A stretch of 53,017 bases of DNA from a virus (lineage: Duplodnaviria; Caudoviricetes): IMG/VR virus record IMGVR_UViG_3300042465_003316, positions 1 to 53,017 of that record. One strand, written 5' to 3'. Shown here piece by piece: positions 8,860 to 40,359 of the stretch (its first letter is position 1; each line of letters begins with the position of its first letter). The notes beneath the pieces were generated by a model. That model was not told where the DNA came from. It ran no database searches and was given only the letters and a program-made list of their open reading frames with translations. A program made the position numbers and the translations under genes.

Positions 8860-8917
8860 GCCAAACCCGCTAAACTACCCTCCAACGCGCTGAGAGATGC
8901 GCTTGGAGGGTTTTTCA

Positions 8918-10850: not shown

Positions 10851-13685
10851 ATGGAACCAACACCAGACCAGATGCGGGAAGAACTGCAGGCGGCCAAAGA
10901 CCAACCAAAGCGGGTGTTGATCCCGGCGGAAGGCCCGGGCGGCGTGAAGGGCATCAAAGTCCCCCGGCACATGCTTGAAGGCGGCAACAAGGCGGAAGGC
11001 ATGAACGCCATCAACGCCGCACGGGCGCAGGTCTACGGGTCCGAGAACCGGCCACCGATCAACATCGGCCAGATGGGCCGCATCCACAAGAACACGCTGG
11101 ACGAACACTTCCAGAAGCCGTTGGACGCCCAATTGGACATCGAGGGCAAGGCACTGCAGCGGCTGCAGGCGGCCAAGCACATCGGGCGGACGGCGGACAC
11201 GCTGGACAAGAGCGAGAAGCTCGACACCGTCAACCACGAACACGATGAGCAGGGGCGCACCTACACCGGCATGGCGTCCAAGGGGATTGCCGGCCACGCG
11301 CTGTACACGTCCGGCCATGGTGCCAACGAGAAGCGGCACGTCCTGAATACCTGTCCCGGGCAGACCGCCGGCTGTGGGGGCGGGACTGACCAGAACGGCG
11401 TGGTGGACACCGCCAAGGGCACGTGCTTCGCGCCCAACGCCGAGTCGCAATACGTGAACGCCGCCGTCCGGCGGGCTTGCCATGCGCAGGCCAAGCACGA
11501 CCCGGCCATGACGCAAGACTGGATTCTGGCGCACACCGGCTCAATGCGCAACGCGGCACGGCTGGCGGACAACAAGGACAAACGCCTGCTGTTCCGGCCC
11601 AACGTGGTGGATGAGACAGACGTGTCTTCCCGGCACGTCATCAAGCACCTGAACAAGCAGCGGGCGCTGGAGGGCAAGCCGCCCATCACGGCCAACTCGT
11701 ACGGCAAGACCAACGAGATGCACGACCCGGCCAACGGGTACTACGTGACGCACTCCAACATCGGGCCCAAGGTCAAGAAGGGGGCGTCGGTGCAGGAGAA
11801 CATCGACCGCGACAAGCAGCGCGTCAGCCGCACCGTCACGGCGGCGTCGGCCAGCGGCAAGGACTTTGTCAACGATGAAGGCGAGAAAACGCCGCCCAAG
11901 AACTCCTACATGGTGACCGACGTCAAGCGGGACTCCCCGTTCGACAAGAAGATGCAGGGCGCGATCACGCACGCCAAGTACTGGTCCACCGGGCGTGCTT
12001 CAAGCGAGTTGGACGAAGACGAACGCAAGGAAGGGCCGGAGGGGCACTACGCCCCGGGCAACAAGCCCACTACGCCCGACAAGGCGCACTACGGCCACAC
12101 CACGCACGAAGGTCTGCGGTACGATTACCAGAAGCAACACATCCTGCATCCCCGGCTGGTGCAAGTGGGCAAGAACGACGACGGCACGCCGCACATGATC
12201 CCGACAGACTCCCGGTTCAAGGACGAGGAGTTCCTGCCCAAGAACCGGTTCAAGACCAAGAACGGCAAAGTGGCTGGCGCCATTCTGATGACCACGCCGA
12301 CTACATCAACCAGCAACGTCGGCCACCAGACATCGTTTACCCACCACGTGGGCGAGCACCATATTGAGCACGCGCTGAAGAACAACGGCGAGTACCAGAT
12401 CGACCCTCCGCATGAACAAGCGGCCAGTGCCGGCAAGGAGTACGCCCCACCACAACCCATCAAGTTTGTGAAGCGATTGGCGTCGGGCGGCTCTGTCGGA
12501 CACGACCAAGAGGCAGAGGCATTTGACGGGCACATGGCATTTCCCGAGCGGAGCTTTGCAGCCCAGCATCGGCTGGCGTATCGGCACGATCCGGAGGAGA
12601 TGGGTGAAATTGGCCTAAGAACCTACCGCGCCGGCGCCAAGCACATTGCGTCGATGGCGGGACAATCTACCGGCGTTCGACGGCGCATGGCTCAAGGCGG
12701 CAGCGTGGAGCCGAGCCAAGACGAGATGCTGGCCCGCGTCATGCTGCGCAAAAACGACATAAACCTCAAGGACATTGGTGCCAACGAGGCACCCAACATG
12801 AACGTCAAGGCCTACGCACCGCCGTCCGGAGGACCGGGTTTCCCCGTAGGCGGCGTCGACTTCCAGCCCGAGACTATGGGCCAACAGATGCTGCCGGGAG
12901 CCCCGGGGCAACCACCCGGCCAACCGCCACAAGCGGGCGGCCTACCCGGGGCTCCCGGCCAGCCACCAGCGCCAGCGGGCGGCCTACCCTCCGGCCCGCC
13001 CTCCGGCCCGCCCGGGGCACCGCCGCCCGGCGGCCCACAAGGCGCGCCCTCGCCGATGGCACGGGGCCCACAAGGGCCGCAGAGCAACATCCTGAGCATG
13101 ACCCGCCAAGGGCAGGCCCTGCAGGCCATGCGGCCCAACCCGGCGCCCGTGCGGCCCGGGATGCCGATGCCCAAGATGGCGGACGGTGGCAGCGTGGACG
13201 ACATGCGCAGGGCCATCGCCAATGCCGCGAAGTCGGCGGGCATGAAGGCACCGGTGGTGGCGAACAAGAACCTGACCACGATGCAGGACACTTACGAATC
13301 GTTACACGACAAGGTGCGCAAAGGCGCCGCCGACATGCAGGACATGATCGAGTCCATGCCGTACAAGTACGACGTAGGGCACCACGTGTTTACCGCCCAC
13401 AGCGCCAAGAACAACCTGCCGCCGTTCAAAGTGGTTCGCAAGGCGCTGGTGGGGAATTCCCCCATGCGCGAAGACTCCAAGATTGGGCCGGGGATGGGCA
13501 AGCCCATCAAGGACCCGGCAACCGGCAAGACCAAGCGCACGCCTTACGAACCCGGCTACGATGTTCGTAGGGAGCACAAAGGAGAAGTGCAGGAAATGCG
13601 CATCCCCGAGTCCGCAATCCTTGACAAGTTGGCCCGTGGTGGCACCGTTGGGAGCCACATCAAGCTGACGGAACGCAAGCTATGA
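10851..13685 (+). CDS. giant multidomain protein: Gp88-like Cys domain, Pro/Gly-rich linker, four xAxGGxV motifs
   Basis: Long ORF with phage-typical codon use between terL and portal; TCPGQTAGC...CF, FRPNV, YGKT, YYVTHS. Confidence 0.75.
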   Translation: MEPTPDQMREELQAAKDQPKRVLIPAEGPGGVKGIKVPRHMLEGGNKAEGMNAINAARAQVYGSENRPPINIGQMGRIHKNTLDEHFQKPLDAQLDIEGKALQRLQAAKHIGRTADTLDKSEKLDTVNHEHDEQGRTYTGMASKGIAGHALYTSGHGANEKRHVLNTCPGQTAGCGGGTDQNGVVDTAKGTCFAPNAESQYVNAAVRRACHAQAKHDPAMTQDWILAHTGSMRNAARLADNKDKRLLFRPNVVDETDVSSRHVIKHLNKQRALEGKPPITANSYGKTNEMHDPANGYYVTHSNIGPKVKKGASVQENIDRDKQRVSRTVTAASASGKDFVNDEGEKTPPKNSYMVTDVKRDSPFDKKMQGAITHAKYWSTGRASSELDEDERKEGPEGHYAPGNKPTTPDKAHYGHTTHEGLRYDYQKQHILHPRLVQVGKNDDGTPHMIPTDSRFKDEEFLPKNRFKTKNGKVAGAILMTTPTTSTSNVGHQTSFTHHVGEHHIEHALKNNGEYQIDPPHEQAASAGKEYAPPQPIKFVKRLASGGSVGHDQEAEAFDGHMAFPERSFAAQHRLAYRHDPEEMGEIGLRTYRAGAKHIASMAGQSTGVRRRMAQGGSVEPSQDEMLARVMLRKNDINLKDIGANEAPNMNVKAYAPPSGGPGFPVGGVDFQPETMGQQMLPGAPGQPPGQPPQAGGLPGAPGQPPAPAGGLPSGPPSGPPGAPPPGGPQGAPSPMARGPQGPQSNILSMTRQGQALQAMRPNPAPVRPGMPMPKMADGGSVDDMRRAIANAAKSAGMKAPVVANKNLTTMQDTYESLHDKVRKGAADMQDMIESMPYKYDVGHHVFTAHSAKNNLPPFKVVRKALVGNSPMREDSKIGPGMGKPIKDPATGKTKRTPYEPGYDVRREHKGEVQEMRIPESAILDKLARGGTVGSHIKLTERKL

Positions 13686-15946
13686 AGGGCTTCTACTCTC
13701 CCATCGACCGGCTCATGGAGCAGTCCACGCGTCCGCGTGGCACCGGGGCAGAGTACATGGCCGAGCTATCCAAGAAACCCGGGTACAAGCCACAGGAGGC
13801 CGAGGACCGCGACCTGCAGGCGCTCATGACGCTACCCAAGATGGAGCGGGCGGCGTTCATGGCAAAGCTCAAGGCCAAGCCGGCGGCCATGCCGGAGGAA
13901 AATACGTTTGCCAAAAGCATCCTAAAAAACCGTGGCTTAAACGTAGTACCAGACACAGAACCGCACCACGAGGACTACACCCTACCGGGCGGCACCAACT
14001 ACCGGGAGATACTGCTCCAGCACCCTAAGGGCGGTTTCTCCGGCGTCGAGGCGCACTTCGGTGGGGCGCCCAACGTGCTGGCTAGTATCCGTGCCAAGGA
14101 CCGAGTTGGGCCCAATGGCGAGAAGATACTGCACCTCGAGGAAATCCAGTCGGACTGGCACCAGCAGGGCCGGGAGAAGGGCTACCACCCCAAGGGCGTG
14201 GACATGGACAAGACGCTGGACGCAGCAAAGAACAAGCACAGCACTCTCCAGCGCCAGCTACAGAGTGCCAAGGCAAACGCAATAGCCGTGGAGCAGCGCA
14301 AGGCCGCTGCGGCCAACCCGGAGGAGCAGGCCCTCCACGACCGGATTCTGCAGGGCTACAACCGCAGCATCATGGACCTGATGCCGCAGGTCATGCGGGC
14401 GGACGAGGAGCTACGCAAGACCCAGCAACTGGCGTCAAGCGGCGTGCCGGATGCCCCGTTCAAGAAGGACTGGCACGAACTGGCCCTCAAGAAGATGATC
14501 CACCACGCCGCCGAGAATGGCTACGACCAGATTGCCATCACCCCGGGCGCGGAGCAGGCCAAGCGGTATAGGCTGAGTAAGCAGATCGATGAGTTGCGCT
14601 ACGGCGACGGGATGCTTGTGGCTACCAAGGGCGGCACCCTTGTCGTCAACAAGGAAACCACGCCCGCCGAGCTTTCTGACTTGGTCGGAAAAGAAGTTGC
14701 GGAGAGGCTTCTCAATTCACCGACTAGCGTCACTGGCAGCGGGTACAACGTGCTTTCAGGCCAAGACCTGAACATTGGCGGCGAGGGCATGAAGGGCTTC
14801 TACGACAAGATGGTGCCGGCGTTCCTGAACAAGTTCGGCAAGAAATACGGCAGCCAAGTCGGGCAAGTTAAGCTACCGGGCGATCCCTCCCAACGCGGTG
14901 ACGCCGCTGAGGCGCTCGGGGTAGCGCACGTACCTTTCACCGGCATGACCCCGCAGCAAATTGCGGAATTCAACCGAAAGCTGGACGACCATAGCGCCAC
15001 AACGCTGCATACCTTCAACATCACACCCCAGATGCGCGAGGACGTGGTGAAGAACGGCATCCCGCTTTATGCCAAGGGCGGCTCGGTTGAGGAAGATGTT
15101 CCACGTGAAACAACCAAGGCTTACAAGATGTTTCGGGTAGACAAGAAGCAGCCGGGTAAGTTGTTCCCGCTGTTTGTGGATGCCGATACCCCGGTGGAGA
15201 TGGGCAAGTGGATTGCGGCCAAAGAAGGCGAGAAGTCCGCCGCAAACACCAAGAAGGTTAAGTCCAAGATCGGCGACTTGGCGTACCGTCCGGGCTGGCA
15301 CGCGGGCGACCTTCCTGTCGCCACCCATATCGGTGAAAAGGATGAGGAGCAGAAGGCGGAAACCCAGCGCGTCAGGGCAATGCGTGACGCGCACGCGGCA
15401 ACGCTTGGCAACACCAAGGCTGCCAAAGCCATAGCCCGGAAGGAGCACCCGTACCCGTCATGGGTGAACGCCCCGCGTTTGCGCAACCCTAACCACATCT
15501 GGGCCGAGGTGGAGATGCCCAACGACGTGGACTGGCAGTCCGAGGCCACCAAACGCGGCTACAACGACCAAGGCAAGCTAATTGCCAGCCAAGCGCACAT
15601 CACCGACCAGTTGCCCAAGGGCGGGCACTACCGCTACAAGACTAACTCCAACATGCTGGGGAACTGGTTGATTGGGGGCTCGATGAAGGTCAACCGCATC
15701 CTGCGGGACGAAGAGGTCGAGGCAATCAACAAAGCCGCTGGTGCAGCCGACCTGCCGCGTGCTAAAGCCATGAACCAGAAAGCCTTTGGCTTTGCCGCAG
15801 GCGGCACCGTCGGGCCAGAGGAGTGGATGTCCGAGGAGCACGTGAATCACAAGCCCGGTAACCGCTCTGTAGTCAAAGAGAAAGTTACACTATCACCTAA
15901 CATGGATGTGATGCAGTACGAACTGCTTACCAAGAAAGCAAAATAA
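13682..15946 (+). CDS. giant two-domain polyvalent-type protein (EEIQSDWH domain plus AYRPGWH domain)
   Basis: GFYS...GGTNYREILL...EEIQSDWHQ...DAPFKK...GMKGFYD; domains separated by YAKGGSV and FAAGGTV. Confidence 0.75.
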   Translation: MKGFYSPIDRLMEQSTRPRGTGAEYMAELSKKPGYKPQEAEDRDLQALMTLPKMERAAFMAKLKAKPAAMPEENTFAKSILKNRGLNVVPDTEPHHEDYTLPGGTNYREILLQHPKGGFSGVEAHFGGAPNVLASIRAKDRVGPNGEKILHLEEIQSDWHQQGREKGYHPKGVDMDKTLDAAKNKHSTLQRQLQSAKANAIAVEQRKAAAANPEEQALHDRILQGYNRSIMDLMPQVMRADEELRKTQQLASSGVPDAPFKKDWHELALKKMIHHAAENGYDQIAITPGAEQAKRYRLSKQIDELRYGDGMLVATKGGTLVVNKETTPAELSDLVGKEVAERLLNSPTSVTGSGYNVLSGQDLNIGGEGMKGFYDKMVPAFLNKFGKKYGSQVGQVKLPGDPSQRGDAAEALGVAHVPFTGMTPQQIAEFNRKLDDHSATTLHTFNITPQMREDVVKNGIPLYAKGGSVEEDVPRETTKAYKMFRVDKKQPGKLFPLFVDADTPVEMGKWIAAKEGEKSAANTKKVKSKIGDLAYRPGWHAGDLPVATHIGEKDEEQKAETQRVRAMRDAHAATLGNTKAAKAIARKEHPYPSWVNAPRLRNPNHIWAEVEMPNDVDWQSEATKRGYNDQGKLIASQAHITDQLPKGGHYRYKTNSNMLGNWLIGGSMKVNRILRDEEVEAINKAAGAADLPRAKAMNQKAFGFAAGGTVGPEEWMSEEHVNHKPGNRSVVKEKVTLSPNMDVMQYELLTKKAK

Positions 15947-21374: not shown

Positions 21375-22289
21375 ATGGCTGCACCAATGAGAAGTACGGA
21401 CTTCCGAAGCATCGTCGAACCAATTTTGAACGAATGCTTCGATGGAGTCTACGACCAACGCGCCGACGAATGGTCACGGGTTTTCCGTGAAGAAGACGGC
21501 ATCCCCCGCAACTACCACGAAGAGCCCGTCCTGTACGGTTTCGGCGCGGCACCTCAACTGCCTGACGGCACCCCGGTGACGTACCAACAAGGTGGTGTGC
21601 TGTTCCTGAAACGCTACGTCTACAAGGTCTACGGTCTAGCTTTTGCCCTGACCAAGGTCCTCGTGGAAGATGGCGACCACATCCGTCTGGGTCAGGTGTA
21701 CGCACGTCACTTGGCGCAGTCTCTGGTGGAAACCAAGGAACTGCTGTCCGCCAACGTCTTGAACACTGCCTTCAACAGCGCGTACCCCGGCGGCGACGGC
21801 GTGTCGCTGATCAACACCGCTCACCCCATCGTGAACGGCACGTTCAGCAACCAGTTGGCAACCGCCGCTGTGCTTTCGCAAACCTCCCTTGAGCAGATGC
21901 TGATCCAAGTACGCCAAGCTGTGGACAACAACGGCAAGAAAATCCGTTTGGTGCCCAAGCAACTGGTCGTGGCTCCGGGCAACGTCTTCCAATCGGAAGT
22001 GCTGCTGAAGTCGGTTCTGCGTGCCGGCAACGCCAACAACGACGTCAACCCCATCAAGTCTATCGGCTTGCTGGACGGCGGCGCTACTGTGCTGAGTCGT
22101 CTGACCAGTGCCAACGCATGGTGGGTCCAGACCGACGCTCCCGAGGGCCTCAAGCTCTTGATGCGCCGTCGTCTGGAGAAGACCATGGAAGGCGACTTCG
22201 AGACCGACTCGATGCGTTACAAGGCCACCGAGCGCTACGACGTGGGCTTCACTGACCCCCGCGCAGCCTACGGCACTCCGGGCATCTAA
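21375..22289 (+). CDS. major capsid protein (HK97 fold)
   Basis: AAGGAG RBS, highly biased codons; GGDGVSLINTAHP, PKQLVVAP, DFETDSMRYKATERY..GFTDPR. Confidence 0.9.
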   Translation: MAAPMRSTDFRSIVEPILNECFDGVYDQRADEWSRVFREEDGIPRNYHEEPVLYGFGAAPQLPDGTPVTYQQGGVLFLKRYVYKVYGLAFALTKVLVEDGDHIRLGQVYARHLAQSLVETKELLSANVLNTAFNSAYPGGDGVSLINTAHPIVNGTFSNQLATAAVLSQTSLEQMLIQVRQAVDNNGKKIRLVPKQLVVAPGNVFQSEVLLKSVLRAGNANNDVNPIKSIGLLDGGATVLSRLTSANAWWVQTDAPEGLKLLMRRRLEKTMEGDFETDSMRYKATERYDVGFTDPRAAYGTPGI

Positions 22290-22303
22290 TGCCCACGGGC
22301 TCT

Positions 22304-22332
22304 GGCGGGGAGCCTTAATCCCCGCCACTTTC
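22304..22332 (+). terminator. terminator after major capsid gene
   Basis: GGCGGGGA-gccttaa-TCCCCGCC followed by ACTTT. Confidence 0.65.
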
Positions 22333-22365
22333 TAAACATCGGTCAAACTTTTCAAGGAGCAGACC

Positions 22366-23331
22366 ATGCCTCAGTTTTCAGACGATCTCTTCTTAGGTAC
22401 CGCCAACGGCTACCAAGGCACCGGCTTGTACTGCACCAGCGCTGTTTTCACAGGCTCGGTAGCTACAACCACTCTCACCGTCACCGCGATGCTCTCAGGC
22501 GATCCAATCGTTCTGGGCATGTTCATCGGCGGTACCAGCGTAACCGCAGGCTCGTACATCACGGCTTTCGGTACGGGCTCAGGGGGCACAGGTACCTACA
22601 CGGTATCGGCTTCGTCTACGGCCAGCAGCACCACCATCTACGGTACGATCCAAGCTCCGCTGCAAGACCCGTCTCCGATGCCACAAGGTGTTGGTCCTCT
22701 GGGCCGTGTGTATGTCTGGGATTGCGTGCCCCAAGCCCTTGGCCTGTCCAACGTGGCCGCTTCGCAAACTGCTGCCGGCGCACAAAGTGTGGTTCTGACC
22801 GCTGGCGCGGGCACCCAGTCCGTTCGCCGCGCAGATGGCGTCACCGTGGTTCAGCTTGACTGCCCTCGCGCGGTGCAGGTTAACTGCGCAACTACGGCGC
22901 GGGCCTTTACGGTCAGCGGTTACGACGCCTACGGCCAGCCCATGTCCGAGGTGATTACCGTGGCCGTGGCAGGCACTGCCGTGTTGGGCACCAAGGCTTT
23001 CTTCCAGATTTCTGGCGCCACCATCGCGGGCTCCGCTACAGCGGTGCTGATCGGCACTACTGACAGGTTCGGCTCCCCAGTGCGGTTCACCGACCGTTCC
23101 TACGTAGTCCGTTACGGCTGGAACAACGCCACGACTGACGACACTTCGGGCACCTTGACACCGGCTGTTATGACCACCGCAACCACTGCCACCGGCGACG
23201 TTCGCGGCACTTTTGCCCCTAGCTCTGTGGCTGACGGCATCAAGCGCTTCGTGATCACCATCGCTCTCCCAGCCATCGCCACAGGCCCCTATGCAACTCG
23301 CACGGGTGCTTACGGTGTTACCCAAGCCTAA
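22366..23331 (+). CDS. virion structural protein (head decoration or fibre-like)
   Basis: Thr/Ala/Gly-rich and beta-rich, strong RBS, follows the major capsid gene. Confidence 0.65.
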
Positions 23332-23341
23332 GGAGTAAATC

Positions 23342-24658
23342 ATGGGTCAATTCAAACCAATGGTGAAGATGGAAACCACCGAGCCCTCGGTGATCCTGAA
23401 GCTGAAAAAGGGAGGCCACGTTTCGTCCGACAAAGACGAAAACGGCCACACCAACATGAAGGGCGCTGGCTTCAAGGCCAAGTATTCCGAAGAGGCTTGC
23501 GAAGGCGAGTCTCCCAAGAAGCCCTCGATGATGGATCGCCGCAAGGCAATGTCCGGTGCCATGCTGAACTCCAAAAACGGCGGCAAGGCCGAGAAAAAGG
23601 CCATGGGTGGCATGATGGGCAGGCCGGCGATGGCCGCGCCCGCTATGGACCCCCGCAGGGCGGCCATGATGAAAGCCATGATGGCCCGCAAGGCCGCTAT
23701 GGGTGCTGTTCCAATGGCAGCCCCGATGGCGGCCCCCGGCATGCCTGCCATGAAAAAAGGCGGCAAGGCTGACATGGACCAAGACAAGGCCATGGTCAAA
23801 AAGGCTTTCAAGCAGCACGACATGCAGGAGCACAAGGGCGGCAAGGGCGGCAAGGGCACCAAGCTCAAGCTGGCTACGGGCGGCTTGACCAACCCAATGA
23901 AAAAGGGGGGTTCCATCAACGATTTTCTCCACACCAAAACCGTGAAGATGAAGACCGCTGAGGGCTACCAAAAGTACGCCGAAGGTGGCGCTGTTAGTGG
24001 AAACGCTTTGAAAACCGTGAACATGGTTACGGCGGGCAAGGCCACTGGTGGCTTGACCAACCCAATGAAAAAGGGGGGTTCCATCAACGATTTTCTCCAC
24101 ACCAAAACCGTGAAGATGAAGACCGCTGATGGCTACCAAAAGTACGCCGAAGGTGGCGCTGTTAGTGGAAACGCTTTGAAAACCGTGAACATGGTTACGG
24201 CGGGCAAGGCCACTGGTGGCGTGGTAAATGGCATGGCTACGGGCGGTCTGACCAATCCTATGAAAAAAGGCGGTGCCGCAAAAAAGCATTTCGCCACGGG
24301 GGGCAGTGTTAGCACTGGCCGCGCCGTGGCAATGCCCAAGCATCCTGTCTCTAAGCCGGTAAGCAACACCGCCCAATCCGGCACCTTCAAAGAGGGCGGA
24401 AAGGTGAGTAAATTTCAGGTTGGAGGCGGGGCCGGGAACACAGACATGGGGACGGACATGACCGGCGGTGGGTACGATAGGTACTACACGGACCTTGAAA
24501 AAGGTAACGTGAAAGACCGGGAAGCCATTACTGGTTTGCCCGGTAGGGCTTACTCCGCCGCTAAACGGTTGTTAGGCATCAAACCTGAGGCAGGGGCCGG
24601 CAGGGGGAATGTAAACCCCCCTCTTGTCCGCAAATCGGGCGGCAGCGCTAAACGGTAA
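23342..24658 (+). CDS. Lys/Met/Gly-rich repeat protein with about 17 xxxGG motifs
   Basis: MKKGG, YAEGG, FATGG and KATGG repeats; AAGGAG RBS; downstream terminator. Confidence 0.8.
   Translation: MGQFKPMVKMETTEPSVILKLKKGGHVSSDKDENGHTNMKGAGFKAKYSEEACEGESPKKPSMMDRRKAMSGAMLNSKNGGKAEKKAMGGMMGRPAMAAPAMDPRRAAMMKAMMARKAAMGAVPMAAPMAAPGMPAMKKGGKADMDQDKAMVKKAFKQHDMQEHKGGKGGKGTKLKLATGGLTNPMKKGGSINDFLHTKTVKMKTAEGYQKYAEGGAVSGNALKTVNMVTAGKATGGLTNPMKKGGSINDFLHTKTVKMKTADGYQKYAEGGAVSGNALKTVNMVTAGKATGGVVNGMATGGLTNPMKKGGAAKKHFATGGSVSTGRAVAMPKHPVSKPVSNTAQSGTFKEGGKVSKFQVGGGAGNTDMGTDMTGGGYDRYYTDLEKGNVKDREAITGLPGRAYSAAKRLLGIKPEAGAGRGNVNPPLVRKSGGSAKR
23882..24220 (+). repeat. 168-bp near-perfect tandem duplication (56 aa)
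   Basis: GGCTTGACCAACCCAATGAAAAAGGGGGG at 23882 and 24050; I see a single GAG/GAT difference. Confidence 0.9.
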
Positions 24659-24659
24659 C

Positions 24660-24690
24660 AAGTAAGGGGCTTAAAATGCCCCTTACTTTC
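24660..24690. terminator. intrinsic terminator
   Basis: AAGTAAGGGGC-ttaaaat-GCCCCTTACTT. Confidence 0.75.
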
Positions 24691-24704
24691 AATTGGAGAA
24701 AATT

Positions 24705-24989
24705 ATGTCAACATTGACAAACGTATTTTCCGTTCATGAAGATGCGACTGGCACGATTTACGCTGGCGCAACAAATCTTGCTGGGTACCAAATAGCGCCC
24801 GGTGGAACGGCTGGTGAAATTGTGTTTCGTGATGGCGGTTCTGGTGGCACTGTGCGATTGCGCTTGAATATTCCTGCTGCCCCATTAACCCCAATTTCAA
24901 CGCTGATCCCCGGCAACGGTATCCGCTTCACAACCAACATCCATGTAACTTTGCCAGCAAGCGCGGCTGTAACCATTTTCTGCGGTTAA
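24705..24989 (+). CDS. small beta-rich structural protein
   Basis: GGAG RBS; IPGNGIRF..NIHVTL...VTIFCG pattern. Confidence 0.7.
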   Translation: MSTLTNVFSVHEDATGTIYAGATNLAGYQIAPGGTAGEIVFRDGGSGGTVRLRLNIPAAPLTPISTLIPGNGIRFTTNIHVTLPASAAVTIFCG

Positions 24990-24991
24990 TC

Positions 24992-25639
24992 ATGCCAAGC
25001 AAATCACCGGCCCAACATCGTTTGATGCAAGCCGCTGCCCACACCAAGGGCGGCTTTGGCGGCGTCCCGCAGAAGGTCGGCAAAGAGTTTGTCAAGGCCG
25101 ACAAAATGGCAGAAGGCGGAGTGGTTCAGTCTTTGAAAAAAGCTGGGTTTTATGAAACAGGGAAAGATAAAGCAGAACGCCTAAAAATCATCGATAACGT
25201 AACAACCAAACCTCAACGGGTGCAAATTGTGGAAAAACTATTTTCAACCAAGAAAATGAAAGAGGGTGGTCTGTACGCCAACATCCATGCCAAGCAGGAG
25301 CGTATTGCCAAGGGCTCAGATGAGCGCATGCGCAAACCGGACAGCAAGGGCGCGCCAACTGCCACGGCTTTCCGGGATTCGGCAAAGACCAAGCGGATGG
25401 CCGATGGCGGCGTTGCAAGCCTTGGGGGCATGGTTTCCAGCACGCCCAACACACCAACGGTAGCCTCGCGTGATAACAGCCGAGCACCGCAAAACATGTT
25501 GGACGGTGCCCAACAGACAGCGGATAACGACATTGAAGGTGGTGACGGTGAAAAGATGTACGGCTACAAGAAGGGTGGTCACATCACCACCCGGCGTATG
25601 TCTACCTGCAGCCCATCCAAGAAGTCTTCCAACTGGTAA
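24992..25639 (+). CDS. basic modular protein with four xxxGG motifs
   Basis: MAEGGVV, MKEGGL, MADGGVA and YKKGGHI separate short modules. Confidence 0.75.
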   Translation: MPSKSPAQHRLMQAAAHTKGGFGGVPQKVGKEFVKADKMAEGGVVQSLKKAGFYETGKDKAERLKIIDNVTTKPQRVQIVEKLFSTKKMKEGGLYANIHAKQERIAKGSDERMRKPDSKGAPTATAFRDSAKTKRMADGGVASLGGMVSSTPNTPTVASRDNSRAPQNMLDGAQQTADNDIEGGDGEKMYGYKKGGHITTRRMSTCSPSKKSSNW

Positions 25640-25644
25640 AGGCC

Positions 25645-25899
25645 ATGGCAAAGAAGTCCCCCTCTTTAGCAATTGGCCGGGGCGAGAAGCTGCCCGTGTC
25701 CAAGGGCGCCGGCCTTACTGAAAAAGGACGCGCCAAGTACAATCGAGAGACGGGGGCGAATCTGAAGGCCCCACAGCCCAAGGGAGGCGCCCGCAAGGAC
25801 TCGTTTTGCGCTCGCATGAGCGGCGTGGTGGAACACTCCAAGGGTGACGCACCCCGCGCAAAGGCATCATTAAAACGCTGGGATTGCCCCGGCTGGTAA
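25645..25899 (+). CDS. small basic phage protein, DUF6321-like
   Basis: GLTEKGRAKYN...NLKAP...RKDSFCARM...LKRWDC. Confidence 0.7.
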   Translation: MAKKSPSLAIGRGEKLPVSKGAGLTEKGRAKYNRETGANLKAPQPKGGARKDSFCARMSGVVEHSKGDAPRAKASLKRWDCPGW

Positions 25900-25908
25900 G
25901 GACACAAC

Positions 25909-26982
25909 ATGGCGTACTCCGGCACCGTCGGTCAGACCGTAATCTCCGTCCAGACGCTGATCGATCACGGTGCGCGTCGTTGCGGCAAGCTGGCCGAAGA
26001 GTTGGCGGTCGAGCAAGTGCAATCGGCCAAGGAGTCGCTCTTCTTTTTCCTGTCCAATCTGGCGAACCTTGGGATCAACTACTGGGCCATCAACAAGACC
26101 GTCATTGGCCTGAACGCTAACCAGTACATCTACAGCCTCCCGGTGGGCGCTGTGGACGCCCAGAACGTGCTCTACAGGCAGATGAACAGGCCGGTGGGTA
26201 CCTACACCTCATCCGCAGGCGGAACGGCCTCCAACGCCGCTGACAACGACCTGACCACGTACTGCCAGCAGACATCCACCAACGGCAACATCGCCGTGGA
26301 TTTTGGCGTTACGGACCCGCAGTACATCGGCTCCATCGGGTTCATGCCCTACGTTGCCGGCGGCGGCAGTGCCACGTGGAACTACGTGCTGGAATACTCC
26401 ACGGACGGTGTGGCATGGAACAACCTTGCCACGGGCGTTAACGTAGCGGTGTCGGACATGGCTTGGGTGTGGACGGACATCGACCCCGGCCAGAACGTCG
26501 AGTTCTACCGCATGCGTGCCACCAATGGCACCACGCTGTCCCTGCGCGAGTTGTATTTTGGCAACAACTCCCGCGAACTGCAGATGTCCCGGCTGAACCG
26601 CGACGACTACACCAACCTGCCCAACAAGAATTTCACGGCCAACCAGCCTTTCCAGTTCTGGTTCGATCGGACCATCCCCCAGCCCACGATGTACCTGTGG
26701 CCGGTGCCGTCTGACCCATTCGTGCAGATGACGGTGTGGTACTCACGCCAGATCATGGACGTGGGTGCCCTGAACGGCCAGCTAGAGATACCCCAGCGCT
26801 GGTACGAGGCGGTCCTGATGAACCTGTCCCACCGGATGAGCTTGGAGCTACCGGGCGTGCCCTTGGATCGCGTTGGGTACCTTGAGAAGATGGCCGCCCA
26901 GTATCTCAATGACGCCGAGAGCGAAGAACGGGATAAATCTCCGATTTATCTGGCCCCGAATATTTCAGTTTACACACGCTGA
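25909..26982 (+). CDS. putative head-tail adaptor with inserted F5/8 (discoidin)-like domain
   Basis: N-terminal helices; LNRDDYTNLPNK...P.QFWFDR...YLWPVP; central LEYSTDGVAW...YRMRA insert. Confidence 0.65.
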   Translation: MAYSGTVGQTVISVQTLIDHGARRCGKLAEELAVEQVQSAKESLFFFLSNLANLGINYWAINKTVIGLNANQYIYSLPVGAVDAQNVLYRQMNRPVGTYTSSAGGTASNAADNDLTTYCQQTSTNGNIAVDFGVTDPQYIGSIGFMPYVAGGGSATWNYVLEYSTDGVAWNNLATGVNVAVSDMAWVWTDIDPGQNVEFYRMRATNGTTLSLRELYFGNNSRELQMSRLNRDDYTNLPNKNFTANQPFQFWFDRTIPQPTMYLWPVPSDPFVQMTVWYSRQIMDVGALNGQLEIPQRWYEAVLMNLSHRMSLELPGVPLDRVGYLEKMAAQYLNDAESEERDKSPIYLAPNISVYTR

Positions 26983-27257
26983 TGCCACGCTATCTTGACA
27001 CCGAAGGCAATGCGTCCCTAGCCATCGCGGTATGCGATCGGTGCAAGATGAAGCGTGCGTTCTCGTCACTGGGCTCGGACCCCAACGTCCCGGGCCTGCG
27101 CGTATGCGATCAGGGGTGCGCGGATCAGCTTGACCCCTACCGGCTCGCCGCGCGGCAGACAGAACGGATAAACTTGAGGTTCCCGAGGCCCGACGTAGAC
27201 CTGACTGGCTTTGATGACCAGTCCCCGGCCTACGAGGGGAAATACGGGCCTCCCTAG
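26982..27257 (+). CDS. small Cys-rich (Zn-binding) tail-region protein
   Basis: VCDRC...GLRVC...C.D..DP...RPD. Confidence 0.7.
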   Translation: MPRYLDTEGNASLAIAVCDRCKMKRAFSSLGSDPNVPGLRVCDQGCADQLDPYRLAARQTERINLRFPRPDVDLTGFDDQSPAYEGKYGPP

Positions 27258-27272
27258 CTCTAAGGCAAGAAC

Positions 27273-31877: not shown

Positions 31878-32380
31878 TGGATCAGCTACTTAATATGCTC
31901 AAGGGCTTTGCCCCCACCATTGCTACTGCGGTGGCTGGCCCCCTTGGTGGCGCGGCTGTGTCGATGATTGCAAAAAAGTTCGGCGTTGAGGACTCTGTAG
32001 CTGCTGTAGCCCAAGCCATTGCCGGTGACCCAGAGGCAGGCAAGAAGCTGCGCGAGATGGACATGGAGTACGCCAAGTTGCACCTTGAGAACGTCAAGGG
32101 TGCGCGTGACATGCAGGCTGCTGCGCTCGGTCAGTCGGATGTGTTCTCCAAACGGTTCATCTACTACTTTGCTGCCTTCTGGTCAGTGTGCGCGGTTGTT
32201 TACATTGCGTGCATCACCTTCGCCACCATCCCAGAGCAGAACGTCCGCTTTGCCGACACCATCCTTGGGTTCCTGTTGGGGACTGTCGTTGCCACAATTT
32301 TGAATTTCTTCTATGGCACCAGCAAGAGCAGTCAAGACAAGACCGACAAGATGGCTGAGATGGCAAAGGAAATGCGATGA
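31877..32380 (+). CDS. putative holin-like membrane protein
   Basis: APTIATAVAGPLGG; two C-terminal TM segments; FFYGTSKSSQDK; adjacent to endolysin. Confidence 0.65.
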   Translation: MDQLLNMLKGFAPTIATAVAGPLGGAAVSMIAKKFGVEDSVAAVAQAIAGDPEAGKKLREMDMEYAKLHLENVKGARDMQAAALGQSDVFSKRFIYYFAAFWSVCAVVYIACITFATIPEQNVRFADTILGFLLGTVVATILNFFYGTSKSSQDKTDKMAEMAKEMR

Positions 32381-37251: not shown

Positions 37252-40200
37252 ATGAACATCCTAGAACTAAAGCGCAGCGCCCGGGGATACTCCTACCGCG
37301 AAGGCGGGGATCAGTTTAACTATCCAACAACAGCGCCATCAACACTTGGGACTTACCAAGGCGATGACGAGAGTAGGTACCCTGCGGTTGTTCAACCTGC
37401 GCCCGTTGTGGTTGCTCCACCTGTAATTGCTCCATCTGCGCTCTCCGTAGTACAACCTACTGTTGCAGCGGGAATTGCCAAAAACGGCCCTTCTGCGGGC
37501 CAACAGTTAGGAGCTGTTATTGGTAGAACGGGAGGCGGCGGTCCCAATGTTGATATTCCGGTTACCGAATACATCGAGGCATACGAATCCGTTAACCCTG
37601 ATGGGACCATCAACAGGTACGACACCCAAGGGAATTTCGTTACCACGTATACATCGAATGGCAGCGATATTGTTGGTGACTTTTTTGCCGGGATCGACTC
37701 TTCGTTGGGGTTGTCTAGCGGGCTTACCTCTATTGGCAAGGGTTTAGAAAACTTGGACAACACCTTGGGCTTGTCTAGAAACGCCCCGGCCATTGTTGGT
37801 ATGGCTGCTTCGTACTTTTTACCCGGGATCGGGCAGGCGCTTGGGCAGTCGTTGGTAAACGCCGGGGTTCTTACGGGTGCAGCCGCCACCCCCGCTATGG
37901 CAACAACCATAGGCACAGCGTTAGCGCAAACAGGGGTTAGCGTAGCTCAAGGACAACCCCTAGACAAAGCTCTTGGCAGCGCCATCATTTCTGTAGGATT
38001 GGGGGCTTATGGCGCAGATATAAAATCAGCCATAGGCCAAATAACCACTAACCCGATTGCTCAGAACGCCATTTTTAAAGCTGGGACTGACGTTGTAACC
38101 GCAGTGGCCCAAGGCAAAAGCGGGGATGAAGTGCTGCAGGGTATTGGGCAGTCTATAGTTTCTACGGTAGCTAACTCTGCCGCCACTGAAGCTGTAAAGA
38201 ACATCCCCGGAATAGATAACTTATCCCCTGCCCAACAGAACATCGTTAAGACTGGCATTGCCACCTCCATCCAAGGTGGCGACGGCACTAAGTCGATGCT
38301 CAATTCTGCGATCAACGCAGGGGCAAACTACGTACTAGACGCGGTGACAGCTACCCCCGGTGCATCCGCAGCTAACCCCATGTCACAAGACCCGGCGCAA
38401 CGGGCTGCGTCCGCAGACACAACAGCAAGCGCCACCACACCCACCCCAAGCATTACAGACATCCTCGCTGATGCAAGATTGAGCGAGCCTAATCTATCGC
38501 CCGAAACGGTCGCGGATATTCTTGGCACGCCGGGAGAGGTTCAACCGGGGTATGTTACCGCAGGGCTTGATACTGGGGTTGTAAGCGATGCTGGGGGCGG
38601 CGGTGGCGCACCTGCTTATATTAGTAGCGGGCGTCCTATCTACTCCGAGGACAGCCGCGCATCAACTGTCGTACCACCTGAAGGTTTTGAGGTCTTATCC
38701 GCAGAGAAAGCTGATAATAAACCTGCCGGATCGTATTACGACGCGGAGTTGAATGCTTGGCTTACACCACAAGCGCCGTACCCAATCGAGTCTGATATTC
38801 CCGACTACCTTGGCACGGGTTCGGACGCGGTTGACTTGCCCGACGAGCAAATTCCGAGCGATAAGGTTACGACGGATTTTGAAGATTTAGTAGCCGCTGG
38901 TGTCGATCCTAATTTGGCTCTTCAACTAGCCATGCAGGGGAATACCGGCACCGGTTCTGTGGCCGGTGGCGGCACAGGCGGTGCTACCGGCGGCGGTGGC
39001 GATCTGACGGATGGTGGGGGTCTACCCTCAACGGTAGTCGACATCCCAGATTACATCGGGGGTGGCGATCTGACGGATGGTGGGGGTCTACCCTCAACGG
39101 TAGTCGACATCCCAGATTACATCGGGGGTGGCGATCTGACGGATGGTGGGGGTCTACCATCAACGGTAGTCGACATCCCAGATTACATCGGGGGCGGTGA
39201 CCTGCCCGGTGGCGGCGGGGGTCTACCATCAACGGTAGTCGACATCCCAGATTACATCGGGGGTGGTGGCGCTCTGCCACCGCTATCCGACTTGCCCTTG
39301 ACGGATGTTGGGTCGCCCGGGCCTGTGACAAACGTAATCGCCGACCTGCCGCCACTATCCGACTTGCCCTTGACGGATGTTGGGTCGCCCGGGCCTGTGA
39401 CGGAAGTAATCGCGGATACTCCCGCGCCGGTGACCCCGGTGACCCCGCCGCCAGTGACCCCGTTGCCAGTGACCCCGGTGACCCCCGTCAAGCCAACCGT
39501 TACACCGACTGTTACGCCAACCGTTACAAGCAGCGGTGGGCTGCCCACTTTAAAATACTCAGACCCGTCTGTTATTTCCGGGGGCGGCCTTCTACACGTA
39601 GGGAAAATGGGGCAAGATATGAACGACCGTCAGCTAAAACAACTCTACGACAGTATCGTAAAAGACACCTCACCGGATTACGACTACGTGGAGGACACGA
39701 AACCAGAAACGGTGGATATTCTCAGAGCAAATACCCTGCCCTTTTCCACGCCGCAGCCCAACTACTCAGGATTCTCGGGGTACTCAGGCTACGCCCAAGG
39801 CGGCCCGGTTCAGAACCTCGCCGAGGGTAGCCAACCCGACCAGTCCTACGCCGTGCGGGACACCATGGCCGCACTGAAGGGCCTCGGCGCCTTGGGGTTC
39901 GATGGTAAGCCCGATCGGCCCCAGCTACTGAAGCAGGGCCAGATGGGTGGGACCCACAACCCCAAGGTGCTTCCCCAGCTTGCGGCACTCCTGCGGGCCC
40001 GGGGAATGACGCTCGCCGAGGGCGGGCAGCCGGACGACCACACCCACCCGAACTACGACGGCGTGCCCCTGCTGCGCACGGGGGGCCTGAGCGGCTTGGG
40101 TGGCAAGTACGTGGAGGGCAAGGGCGACGGCACCAGCGACGATATCGCGGCGATGCTTGCCAACGGTGAGTACGTGTTTTCGGCGGACGTGGTGGCGGCA

Positions 40201-40359
40201 CTGGGGAACGGCTCGAACAAAGCCGGAGCGGAAGAACTTGACAGGATGGTGCGAGCCATCCGCTCCCGGGCCCGGTCTGCGCCACCGGACAAACTGCCCC
40301 CGGATGCCAAGTCTCCGCTAGAATACCTGAAGTCCTCAAAGGGGAAAACGCATGGCTGA
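37252..40359 (+). CDS. internal virion/ejection-type protein with tandem repeats and C-terminal GxGDGTSD...NGEYV domain
   Basis: Gly/Ala membrane-like segments, acidic repeats, C-terminal domain; position after nozzle. Confidence 0.7.
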   Translation: MNILELKRSARGYSYREGGDQFNYPTTAPSTLGTYQGDDESRYPAVVQPAPVVVAPPVIAPSALSVVQPTVAAGIAKNGPSAGQQLGAVIGRTGGGGPNVDIPVTEYIEAYESVNPDGTINRYDTQGNFVTTYTSNGSDIVGDFFAGIDSSLGLSSGLTSIGKGLENLDNTLGLSRNAPAIVGMAASYFLPGIGQALGQSLVNAGVLTGAAATPAMATTIGTALAQTGVSVAQGQPLDKALGSAIISVGLGAYGADIKSAIGQITTNPIAQNAIFKAGTDVVTAVAQGKSGDEVLQGIGQSIVSTVANSAATEAVKNIPGIDNLSPAQQNIVKTGIATSIQGGDGTKSMLNSAINAGANYVLDAVTATPGASAANPMSQDPAQRAASADTTASATTPTPSITDILADARLSEPNLSPETVADILGTPGEVQPGYVTAGLDTGVVSDAGGGGGAPAYISSGRPIYSEDSRASTVVPPEGFEVLSAEKADNKPAGSYYDAELNAWLTPQAPYPIESDIPDYLGTGSDAVDLPDEQIPSDKVTTDFEDLVAAGVDPNLALQLAMQGNTGTGSVAGGGTGGATGGGGDLTDGGGLPSTVVDIPDYIGGGDLTDGGGLPSTVVDIPDYIGGGDLTDGGGLPSTVVDIPDYIGGGDLPGGGGGLPSTVVDIPDYIGGGGALPPLSDLPLTDVGSPGPVTNVIADLPPLSDLPLTDVGSPGPVTEVIADTPAPVTPVTPPPVTPLPVTPVTPVKPTVTPTVTPTVTSSGGLPTLKYSDPSVISGGGLLHVGKMGQDMNDRQLKQLYDSIVKDTSPDYDYVEDTKPETVDILRANTLPFSTPQPNYSGFSGYSGYAQGGPVQNLAEGSQPDQSYAVRDTMAALKGLGALGFDGKPDRPQLLKQGQMGGTHNPKVLPQLAALLRARGMTLAEGGQPDDHTHPNYDGVPLLRTGGLSGLGGKYVEGKGDGTSDDIAAMLANGEYVFSADVVAALGNGSNKAGAEELDRMVRAIRSRARSAPPDKLPPDAKSPLEYLKSSKGKTHG
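38992..39530 (+). repeat. coding tandem repeats: 4 x 66 bp, 2 x 72 bp, then PVT/TPTV low-complexity
   Basis: GGGDLTDGGGLPSTVVDIPDYI x4 (D codons at 39001, 39067, 39133, 39199); LPPLSDLPLTDVGSPGPVT..IAD x2. Confidence 0.9.

What the first reader, a model, noticed from the sequence alone, without database searches (positions are those of the whole stretch)
24992..25639. Mini-polyprotein of modules that resemble stand-alone small phage proteins
Module 1 (MPSKSPAQHRLMQAAAH...PQKVGKEFVKADK) and module 3 (GLYANIHAKQERI...MRKPDSKGAPTA.AF.DSAKT) resemble ~40-50 aa basic proteins that I recall as separate ORFs in other aquatic phages. Here they are joined exactly at MAEGG, MKEGG and MADGG. Module 2 (about 25130-25260) is visibly AT-richer, consistent with a cassette inserted between two motifs. 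This is the cleanest test of the polyprotein idea.
Basis: partly seen in the sequence, partly recalled or inferred. Interest (0 to 1): 0.7.

Follow-up and report, generated by a model that had tools for sequence, protein, structure and literature searches.

The report
Modular basic phage protein, Gly-Gly joints
This small late gene of an uncultured freshwater-type phage strings together tiny basic protein modules that other phages encode as separate genes, and close relatives reshuffle the same parts at one conserved short joint, but nothing yet shows that the chain is cut there.

Summary
ORF 24992-25639 (+, 215 aa) is a real gene under purifying selection. It reads module A, joint, module B, joint, module C, joint, disordered spacer, joint, 19-residue Trp-ended tail.

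- **Stand-alone parts:** A and C match PHROG families of 58 and 50 positions and are separate 48-53 aa ORFs in cultured phages.
- **No collinear homologues:** none among 79 phage records. Only 1 of 150 library representatives, the window's own cluster, has this architecture.
- **Reshuffled slot:** 68 countable relatives show 17 arrangements of the same parts, with exact in-frame indels at the joints.
- **Module B:** a 150-nt cassette with GC3 0.33, against 0.63-0.72 for the rest.
- **The joint depends on fusion:** module D has Gly-Gly in 0 of 14 cases at a protein start and 36 of 37 cases when internal.
- **New here:** 85 of 89 chains from this slot end in Trp, and unrelated slot proteins share a joint-plus-tail tag.

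The "polyprotein" reading is only partly supported. No protease was found and no cleavage is shown. My best reading is a miniature polyvalent or cargo-type chain.

This scan noted the same Gly-Gly joint before on other DNA (crAss-like phages and a 93-kb phage).

The parts
24992..25639 (+). 215-aa ORF: chain A - joint - B - joint - C - joint - spacer - joint - C-terminal tail
   Evidence: pN/pS 0.12-0.37 against 4 relatives
24992..25105 (+). Module A (res 1-38), basic (pI 10.3), nearly always N-terminal
   Evidence: phrog_16759 E 4e-11; stand-alone 52-aa CDS in Stenotrophomonas phage BUCT555; N-terminal or whole protein in 40 of 46 occurrences
25106..25120 (+). Joint 1, MAEGG
   Evidence: lies inside the 150-nt indel together with B
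25121..25255 (+). Module B (res 44-88), three helices, AT-rich cassette
   Evidence: GC 0.37, GC3 0.33; AlphaFold2 pLDDT 80 when folded alone; absent in A-C-T relatives by an exact 150-nt indel
25256..25270 (+). Joint 2, MKEGG
   Evidence: its Met aligns with the start Met of stand-alone module C
25271..25396 (+). Module C (res 94-135), basic (pI 10.4)
   Evidence: phrog_16028 E 8e-20; stand-alone 48-54 aa ORFs in S-SBP1, Bylgja, S-RIP1 and DSL-LC05
25397..25411 (+). Joint 3, MADGG
25412..25564 (+). Ser/Thr/Pro/Asn-rich spacer (res 141-191), predicted disordered, hypervariable among relatives
   Evidence: pLDDT below 50; variable
25565..25579 (+). Joint 4, YKKGG
25580..25636 (+). 19-residue C-terminal tail ending in Trp, shared with unrelated proteins of the same slot
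25645..25899 (+). Module D as a separate gene (84 aa, DUF6321, ends in Trp); fused to C, A or B in many relatives
   Evidence: PF19846 E 4.8e-17; fused and split states
23342..24658 (+). 438-aa very basic protein R with 11 joints and a 168-nt tandem repeat (23882-24220)
   Evidence: its N-terminus and a mid-section recur with module C in P0080
24693..24989 (+). 98-aa ORF U without joints; its stop lies 2 nt before the start of the 215-aa ORF
   Evidence: detected in 10 of the 80 fetched loci
10851..13685 (+). 944-aa protein with 4 joints (each GG followed by Ser/Thr-Val) between apparent domains
13682..15946 (+). 754-aa protein with 2 joints
   Evidence: phrog_7348 region
37252..40359 (+). 1035-aa repeat-rich protein with 2 joints and a tape-measure-like C-terminal motif
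21375..22289 (+). Major capsid protein (context)
   Evidence: PF25209 E 1.1e-11; 88-99% identical in 19 relatives
25909..26982 (+). Adaptor-like protein with an F5/8 type C insert (context; anchor used to fetch relatives)

Best explanation
The ORF is a real late gene. It encodes one chain of three small, basic, helical modules (A, B, C), a disordered spacer and a short Trp-ended C-terminal tail. A conserved five-residue joint (bulky residue, Ala or Lys, any residue, Gly, Gly) sits at every junction.

Shown here:
- The modules are independent evolutionary units.
- Elsewhere they are separate genes.
- In close relatives they are gained, lost, fused and split by exact in-frame indels placed at the joints.
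- The Gly-Gly is present only where two parts are covalently joined.

Inferred:
- The chain is a miniature polyvalent or cargo-type protein that is loaded into the head and leaves with the DNA.
- The modules act independently, probably on nucleic acid given pI of about 10.
- The Trp-ended tail, and perhaps N-terminal module A, is the per-chain signal for incorporation into the particle.
- The joint is a helix-ending flexible connector. It keeps modules autonomous and gives a common register for in-frame cassette exchange.

I put cutting at the joints at about 1 in 3.
For: - **Gene and context:** the ORF lies in the late operon between the capsid gene and the adaptor gene, and no + strand terminator was found in 22300-27400. 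pN/pS is 0.12-0.37.
- **Stand-alone modules:**
- **Shuffling across the library:** 1395 hits at E<=1e-3 in 1.84 billion representatives. The best 150 are 56-1407 aa long and fall into 30 architectures.
- **Shuffling in the slot:** 68 countable of 80 fetched loci give 17 arrangements, while the capsid protein stays 88-99% identical.
- **Exact indels:** B plus its joint is 150 nt. The split and fused C|D states differ by 42 nt inserted directly after GG. Module D alleles are closer across states (212/225, 210/225) than within a state (197/225, 201/225).
- **Joint conditional on fusion:** for D, Gly-Gly is present in 0 of 14 at a protein start and 36 of 37 internal. For B it is 20 of 21 internal, and for T 32 of 32.
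- **Protein-level conservation:** 92 distinct 15-mers among 143 joints.
- **Concentration of joints:** they fall in 5 of 40 window proteins, all in the packaging-to-tail gene block.
- **Per-chain Trp end:** 85 of 89 slot chains end in Trp, against 2 of 37 window ORFs. When D is split off, the upstream chain gains its own 7-residue Trp cap.
- **Shared tail:** 51 distinct slot proteins with unrelated bodies carry the same joint-plus-tail.
- **Cargo link:** larger relatives carry ART-PolyVal, InPase, SLT and NUDIX domains. Module A heads two PHROG families annotated as virion structural protein. DUF6321 ends proteins annotated 'structural protein' or 'virion protein' in cyanomyoviruses.
- **Model:** helix 73-90 stops just before the Gly-Gly of joint 2.
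Against: - No experiment or proteome places this protein, or any close relative, in a particle. The 'structural' labels are depositors' annotations.
- The function of every module is unknown. Fold and PDB searches found nothing.
- A plain hinge does not obviously need a conserved bulky residue at -5 and Ala/Lys at -4, nor the same five residues in phage lineages as distant as crAss-like viruses. That pattern fits recognition by some factor better.
- Joints also precede the tail and follow short N-terminal leaders. That is where a tag-removing protease site would sit.
- In T7-like phages, modules C and D lie in an accessory-gene hot spot beside hli and psbA, so head association is not assured.
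Confidence: 0.5

Rival explanations
1. True polyprotein. After synthesis, or after loading into the prohead, a protease cuts at or after Gly-Gly. This releases A, B and C as separate small basic proteins and removes the tail, as a targeting tag is removed in some phage heads.
For: - Fused and separate states of the same modules alternate among close relatives, as if the end products were equivalent.
- The joint has site-like conservation at -5, -4, -2 and -1.
- Joints lie exactly between payload and tail, and after short N-terminal leaders in the 438-aa and 1035-aa proteins.
- Processing of packaged polyvalent proteins is discussed for phage P1 DarA and DdrB (PMC5512222, passages).
Against: - No peptidase family was found in 59 window ORFs by Pfam. 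PHROGs and NCBIfam gave none for the unknown head-region ORFs. The record is 88% complete, and many ORFs have no family.
- Only 1 of 239 related proteins ends at Gly-Gly, although a stop there would give the same product without a protease.
- A joint before a 4-7 residue cap would release a useless peptide, unless the cap acts before cutting.
- Another lineage fuses module C without any joint.
Confidence: 0.3
2. The joint is a repeated docking or packing handle. Each copy binds a head component (portal, capsid interior or scaffold), so chains are loaded in proportion to their number of joints.
For: - Joints are concentrated in proteins of the packaging-to-tail block: 11 in the 438-aa protein, and 4, 4, 2 and 2 in the others.
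- Residues after GG are needed, since chains almost never end at GG.
- A bulky residue often recurs two positions after GG in the window's large proteins.
Against: - Stand-alone modules lack the joint entirely.
- Positions after GG are poorly conserved overall.
- No partner has been identified.
Confidence: 0.15
3. Not particle cargo. The modules are cytoplasmic small nucleic-acid-binding or host-takeover proteins made late in infection. Fusion is a neutral by-product of tightly packed small genes whose stop codons are easily lost.
For: - The Met of the joints aligns with the start Met of the stand-alone forms.
- In T7-like cyanophages, C and D sit among accessory genes.
- In T4-like cyanophages the DUF6321 protein family is described as part of a mobile cassette (PMC3037559, passage).
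Against: - Neutral read-through would not create Gly-Gly at 36 of 37 internal D junctions and at none of 14 starts.
- It would not give each chain a Trp end.
- It does not explain the same joints in the 944-, 754- and 1035-aa proteins, or the ties to polyvalent-protein domains.
Confidence: 0.15
4. The joint Mets are internal translation starts, so one mRNA yields a nested set of products.
For: Met is the commonest first residue of the joint (84 of 143).
Against: - No Shine-Dalgarno-like pairing precedes the three joint Mets of this ORF (-3.0, 0.5 and -1.7 kcal/mol). The neighbouring late genes with a taaggag-type site give about -8 to -9.
- Phe, Tyr, Leu and Lys replace Met in 59 of 143 joints.
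Confidence: 0.05

Closest known systems
Polyvalent proteins of phages and conjugative elements (Iyer, Burroughs, Anand, de Souza, Aravind 2017, PMC5512222; abstract and passages read)
   Same: Several autonomous units sit in one polypeptide. Architecture varies greatly among relatives. The genes lie beside virion genes. Larger relatives of this ORF carry the catalogued ART-PolyVal and InPase domains.
   Different: This chain has no catalogued domain (Pfam: none), no metallopeptidase domain, and units of only 38-45 residues. A text search of the paper gives 0 occurrences of 'linker' or 'glycine', so the Gly-Gly joint and the Trp-ended tail are not mentioned in its main text. Its supplementary files were not seen.
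Cargo proteins C1/C2 of Bacteroides phage crAss001 (Bayfield et al. 2023, PMC10172136; passages read) and the Gly-Gly joints noted by this scan in crAss-like phages
   Same: Proteins stored in a podovirus particle and ejected. Earlier notes of this scan report the same bulky-x-x-Gly-Gly joint between swappable modules.
   Different: This is a different phage lineage: the portal is 46% identical to Caulobacter phage RW and 30-35% to HTVC023P/CRP-901 types. The chain is far smaller. A text search of the crAss001 paper gives 0 occurrences of 'cleav', 'proteoly' or 'protease'.
Internal proteins of phage T4 with an N-terminal capsid-targeting sequence removed by the prohead protease (recalled, not checked here)
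   Same: Small basic proteins loaded into the head by a short terminal tag, with a processing site next to the tag, and injected with the DNA.
   Different: Here the candidate tag is C-terminal and ends in Trp, the motif is Gly-Gly, and no prohead protease was found.
Cargo-loading peptides of encapsulins (recalled, not checked here)
   Same: A short C-terminal peptide behind a flexible linker targets unrelated cargo proteins to the inside of an HK97-fold shell. The shared joint-plus-tail on unrelated slot proteins has the same logic.
   Different: No sequence likeness was tested, and binding to the capsid protein is not shown.
Gly-Gly-directed polyprotein processing in large eukaryotic DNA viruses (African swine fever virus pp220/pp62: PMC10308890, listing and abstract start only; adenovirus protease: recalled)
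   Same: Structural precursor chains carry Gly-Gly at the junctions of core or basic proteins.
   Different: Those systems have a dedicated cysteine protease. None was detected here, and cutting is untested.

Membership tests
Polyvalent proteins (Iyer et al. 2017) | Two or more autonomous domains in one polypeptide of a phage or conjugative element | tested here: met
   A, B and C each occur alone or in other combinations.
Polyvalent proteins (Iyer et al. 2017) | Contains domains of the published catalogue (MPTase, ART-PolyVal, InPase, LPDs and others) | tested here: not met
   Pfam finds no family at E<=1 for the 215-aa ORF. Only larger relatives that share modules carry ART-PolyVal or InPase.
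Polyvalent proteins (Iyer et al. 2017) | Encoded beside virion or late genes, with rapidly varying architecture among relatives | tested here: met
Polyvalent proteins (Iyer et al. 2017) | Packaged in the particle and delivered to the host | not testable with these tools
   Only depositors' 'structural' or 'virion' labels on distant relatives are available.
Viral polyprotein | One ORF holding several units that also exist as separate products | tested here: met
Viral polyprotein | Conserved motif at every junction | tested here: met
   4 of 4 junctions in the ORF carry it. Internal D junctions 36 of 37, B 20 of 21, T 32 of 32.
Viral polyprotein | Cognate protease encoded by the virus | tested here: inconclusive
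   No peptidase family in 59 ORFs by Pfam, and none from PHROGs or NCBIfam. Many ORFs are unassigned and the record is 88% complete.
Viral polyprotein | Chain is cut into mature products | not testable with these tools
   This needs proteomics or expression experiments.
DUF6321 (PF19846) | Match above Pfam's gathering score | tested here: not met
   The 215-aa ORF has no match. The neighbouring ORF 25645-25899 does (62.8 bits against a cut-off of 28.5).
PHROG 16759 / PHROG 16028 (small phage proteins of unknown function) | Profile match over most of the profile | tested here: met
   Residues 1-39 match profile positions 1-41 of 58 (E 4e-11). Residues 90-134 match positions 2-46 of 50 (E 8e-20).
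Double-glycine leader peptides cut by C39 peptidase transporters | Single N-terminal leader ending in Gly-Gly, with a C39 peptidase/ABC transporter nearby | tested here: not met
   The joints are internal and multiple, and no peptidase or transporter family is found in the window.
SAP / helix-extended-helix DNA-binding motif (my recalled lead for module B) | Fold or profile match | tested here: inconclusive
   Pfam finds none. Foldseek best E is 2.3. VIA-align best Z is 4.5 with no such family among the top rows.

The most novel reading that the evidence does not exclude
The bulky-x-x-Gly-Gly joint and the short Trp-ended C-terminal tail together form a cargo code used by unrelated podophage lineages. 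The tail loads a whole chain into the prohead. The joints are then cut by an unrecognised protease, phage or host, releasing a set of small basic DNA-associated proteins. Because units carry their own joints, phages can re-assort their injected protein repertoire by in-frame cassette exchange.
Probability: 0.22. Interest if true: 0.85.

Novelty: new variant of a known kind. Interest (0 to 1): 0.6.

Why it matters
- **What phages carry besides DNA:** how tailed phages choose and load the proteins they carry in the particle is known for only a few model phages. This lineage is abundant (545 relatives of the adaptor protein in IMG/VR) and shows a readable grammar: a usual N-terminal module, swappable payload modules, one conserved joint, and one Trp-ended tail per chain.
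- **A natural experiment:** the same parts are fused, split or missing in close relatives. That makes the open question, whether the joints are cut or not, directly testable with simple proteomics or tagged expression.
- **Scale:** it assigns a common framework to over a thousand library representatives (1395 at E<=1e-3), each standing for a cluster of tiny 'hypothetical' phage proteins.
- **Practical use:** if the tail proves to be a loading signal, it could be used to pack foreign proteins into phage heads.

Tried and rejected
- **Folds:** the AlphaFold2 model of the whole chain is poor outside B and part of C (pLDDT 59.5). Foldseek on it gave nothing (best E 3.1). Module B alone folds well (pLDDT 80) but has no convincing match (Foldseek best E 2.3; VIA-align best Z 4.5). 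My recalled likeness of B to SAP-type motifs is therefore unsupported.
- **PDB profile search:** alignment A1 gave only ribosomal protein L40E at E 0.42.
- **Complex prediction:** capsid protein against the last 40 residues of the chain returned no answer. It says nothing either way.
- **Protease hunt:** Pfam, PHROGs, NCBIfam and the ESM Atlas gave no peptidase for the unassigned head-region ORFs.
- **Internal initiation:** rejected.
- **DNA microhomology only:** rejected as the sole cause, because joint codons vary (92 distinct 15-mers of 143).
- **AT-richness of B from amino-acid content alone:** rejected by third-position GC.
- **Nearest cultured relative by portal:** Caulobacter phage RW has none of these modules at the matching place.
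- **Earlier notes by place:** nothing on this genome.
- **Literature:** 'DUF6321' is in 0 papers. 'bacteriophage + polyprotein + Gly-Gly + virion' is in 5 papers, none on phage joints by title or abstract start.
- **Supplement not seen:** Table S8 of PMC3037559 may say whether the cyanophage DUF6321 protein was detected in particles. Supplements are closed.

Full report
**Setting**

The window is a whole virus record of 53,017 bases, CheckV 88% complete. PHROGs and Pfam give the following layout:
- Small and large terminase: 8897-10823
- Two large unassigned proteins: 10851-15946
- Portal: 15946-18435
- Capsid protein: 21375-22289
- SU10-type adaptor-like proteins: 25909-26982 and 33113-33754
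- Tail fibre: 27273-30539
- Lysin: 32377-32886
- Replication genes on the minus strand beyond 45 kb

The portal is 69% identical to an uncultured spring-water phage. It is 46% identical to Caulobacter phage RW and 30-35% identical to Roseobacter CRP-901/902 and Pelagibacter HTVC023P/027P. The finding lies in the late operon between the capsid and adaptor genes. No + strand terminator-like site was found in 22300-27400.

**The observation**

I divide it as follows:

| Part | Residues |
|---|---|
| Module A | 1-38 |
| Joint MAEGG | 39-43 |
| Module B | 44-88 |
| Joint MKEGG | 89-93 |
| Module C | 94-135 |
| Joint MADGG | 136-140 |
| Ser/Thr/Pro/Asn-rich spacer | 141-191 |
| Tail ending in Trp | 197-215 |

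- The pattern [MFYL][AK]xGG occurs 4 times against 0.07 expected; 0 of 500 shuffles reach 4.
- Pfam finds no family.
- PHROGs matches residues 1-39 to phrog_16759 (58 positions) and residues 90-134 to phrog_16028 (50 positions).
- A, B and C are basic, with pI 10.0-10.4.
- The ORF is under purifying selection, with pN/pS 0.12-0.37 against four relatives. Synonymous divergence differs by module, for example 0.15 for C against 0.52 for A and 0.72 for T with L017. That is a sign of separate histories.

**Are the modules stand-alone elsewhere?**

Yes. tblastn against 50,697 phage records finds 79 records, and none covers 80% of the query.
- Module C is a separate ORF of 48-54 aa in T7-like phages. 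It is S-SBP1 gp28, just after a stand-alone DUF6321 gene, and Bylgja gp4, between the scaffold and capsid genes. It is also separate in S-RIP1.
- In phage DSL-LC05, module D, module C and a second N-terminal type (A') are three separate genes.
- Module A is a 52-aa CDS after the portal-sized gene of Stenotrophomonas phage BUCT555.

A full HMMER scan of 1.84 billion representatives gives 1395 hits at E<=1e-3. The best 150 are 56-1407 aa long and fall into 30 module architectures. Only one, the window's own cluster, is A-B-C-T. Position preferences:
- A is N-terminal or the whole protein in 40 of 46 occurrences.
- D is C-terminal in 7 of 7.
- C occurs anywhere.

**The natural experiment**

The adaptor protein has 545 relatives in IMG/VR. 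I fetched 80 loci at 73-94% identity and mapped the window's modules onto their + strand ORFs. Twelve loci too close to a contig end were set aside. The other 68 show 17 arrangements of the slot just upstream of the adaptor:

| Arrangement | Loci |
|---|---|
| [A-C-D] | 17 |
| [A-T][C-D] | 7 |
| [A-C][D] | 6 |
| [A-B-C-T][D], the window's form | 5 |
| [A-B-C][D] | 5 |
| [A-C-T][D] | 4 |
| [A-C] | 4 |
| [C-D] | 4 |
| [A-D] | 4 |
| Eight rarer forms, one of them empty | 12 in all |

The capsid protein of 19 of these relatives is 88-99% identical to the window's. So the slot changes far faster than its surroundings.

DNA alignments show how the changes happen.
- B with its upstream joint is an exact 150-nt in-frame indel.
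- The split and fused states of C|D differ by an exact 42-nt indel placed right after Gly-Gly. It encodes a 7-residue Trp cap, a stop, three bases and a new five-residue start.
- D alleles are more alike between a fused and a split locus (212/225 and 210/225) than between two fused (197/225) or two split (201/225) loci. So the states have interconverted, or the small cassette has moved, more than once.

**Module B as a cassette**

- GC is 0.37 in the window and 0.395 on average in 11 distinct loci. The other modules average 0.55-0.60.
- At third codon positions the window has 0.33 for B against 0.68 (A), 0.72 (C) and 0.63 (T). So the dip is not only an effect of amino-acid content.
- In some relatives C is also low, which suggests B-C came together.

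**What the joint is**

*Conditional on fusion.* Among 239 distinct proteins (89 from the loci, 150 from the library), Gly-Gly within the 12 residues before each module is distributed as follows:

| Module | At a protein start | Internal |
|---|---|---|
| D | 0 of 14 | 36 of 37; the exception is an over-long ORF call |
| B | 0 of 2 | 20 of 21 |
| T | no cases | 32 of 32 |
| C | 2 of 28 | 72 of 106 |

The C exceptions are mostly over-called starts, plus a separate lineage that fuses C through acidic linkers without a joint.

*Met of the joint.* It aligns residue for residue with the start Met of the stand-alone forms.
- Phe, Tyr, Leu or Lys replace it in 59 of 143 joints.
- No ribosome-binding site precedes the joint Mets of this ORF.

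*Protein-level conservation.* There are 92 distinct 15-mers among 143 joints, and all four Gly codons are used.

*Where joints occur.* In the window they are confined to five of the 40 ORFs tested, apart from one match in the tail fibre that is at the chance level (181 of 500 shuffles). The five are this ORF (4 joints), the 438-aa basic protein upstream (11), and the 944-, 754- and 1035-aa proteins (4, 2 and 2). In the three large proteins they fall between apparent domains and are usually followed by Ser/Thr-Val.

*In the model.* The long helix of B (residues 73-90) stops just before the Gly-Gly of joint 2.

- 85 of 89 distinct slot proteins end in Trp whatever their last module is. In the window only this ORF and the DUF6321 ORF do so, out of 37 ORFs checked.
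- Only 1 of 239 proteins ends at Gly-Gly.
- Other genes that some relatives carry in the same slot have unrelated bodies of 100-266 aa. They share the same ending: a joint, then about 19-21 residues with a conserved Ile/Val, Ser/Thr-Thr and Lys-Lys, then Trp or Phe. In all, 51 distinct proteins carry this ending with 44 distinct tails.
- The ending occurs in 65 of 389 ORFs of at least 60 aa in the slot, against 10 of 943 elsewhere. Of those ten, three are the 438-aa-type protein and seven are Gly-rich fibre ends that look like chance matches.
- When D is split off, the upstream chain acquires its own Trp cap.

I read the Trp end as a per-chain requirement, most simply a signal for incorporation. 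This is an inference.

**Link to known systems**

- Larger library relatives that share A', C or D carry ART-PolyVal, InPase, SLT, NUDIX and DUF2213 domains. The first two were defined on polyvalent proteins (PMC5512222; abstract and passages).
- Module A heads PHROG families 22033 and 25121, both annotated as virion structural protein.
- DUF6321 ends 444-530 aa proteins of T4-like cyanophages, which depositors label 'structural protein' or 'virion protein'.
- The polyvalent-protein paper's main text does not contain 'linker' or 'glycine'.
- The crAss001 atlas does not contain 'cleav', 'proteoly' or 'protease' (PMC10172136).
- This scan noted the same joint before on other DNA: seven crAss-like windows and one 93-kb phage among the notes shown. 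None of those notes showed cutting.

**Cut or not?**

For cutting:
- Fused and split states look equivalent.
- The joint has site-like conservation.
- It sits between payload and tail, and after short leaders.

Against cutting, or neutral:
- No peptidase family was found in 59 ORFs, nor in the unassigned head-region ORFs by PHROGs, NCBIfam or the Atlas.
- Chains almost never end at Gly-Gly.
- A cut before a 4-7 residue cap makes sense only if the cap acts first.

I therefore keep the modular cargo-chain reading as best (0.5), with cutting at about 0.3.

**Limits**

- No function is shown for any module.
- Particle association rests on gene position, shared domains and depositors' labels.
- ORF starts in the loci are my own longest-ORF calls.
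- The module boundaries rest on phmmer with the window's own modules, so divergent module types (A', the E-like insert in A-T-T forms) are under-counted.

Noticed in passing
window 25580-25636 and 25645-25899; loci L005-L084: 85 of 89 distinct proteins from the slot upstream of the adaptor end in Trp. In the window only these two of 37 ORFs do.
   Followed up: partly
L028:4943-5992, L036:4928-5992, L041:5304-5992, L045:888-1676, L060:5191-5991, L071:1297-1602, L081:3067-3372: Some relatives carry extra genes in the slot. Their bodies are unrelated, but all end with a Gly-Gly joint plus a conserved tail of about 20 residues ending in Trp or Phe. PHROGs finds no family for them.
   Followed up: partly
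window 23882-24220: A 168-nt tandem repeat (2.0 copies, 99% matches) inside the 438-aa basic protein duplicates a 56-residue unit that itself holds three joints.
   Followed up: no
window 37252-40359: The 1035-aa protein has four tandem copies of a Gly/Asp-rich unit of about 22 residues, a Pro/Thr/Val-rich stretch, and a C-terminal motif that weakly matches tape-measure PHROGs.
   Followed up: no
window 10851-15946: Two large unassigned proteins lie between terminase and portal. Their joints are each followed by Ser/Thr-Val. The 944-aa protein also has a long Pro/Gly/Gln-rich stretch.
   Followed up: no
window 21375-22289 against the slot 24992-25899: The capsid protein is 88-99% identical in 19 relatives, while the slot 3 kb downstream takes 17 arrangements in 68 relatives.
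   Followed up: yes
L091:1507-2007 (uncultured phage MedDCM-OCT-S04-C24): An annotated 166-aa CDS (501 nt) is module C read straight through, without a joint, into a signal-peptide-like protein. That protein is a separate gene in S-SBP1.
   Followed up: no
L086:1379-2710 (syn9 gp114), L087:1127-2716 (S-P4): T4-like cyanophage proteins of 444-530 aa end in DUF6321 and contain other short basic Cys/Trp-bearing segments. The family (T4-GC119) is described as part of a mobile cassette with an endonuclease (PMC3037559, passage).
   Followed up: no
L085:2445-5247 (Caulobacter phage RW): The large terminase is annotated as two CDSs separated by a SAM-dependent methyltransferase gene.
   Followed up: no
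window 1673-1978 and 6706-7179: A Cro/YdaS-type helix-turn-helix ORF and an HNH endonuclease ORF lie in the early region.
   Followed up: no
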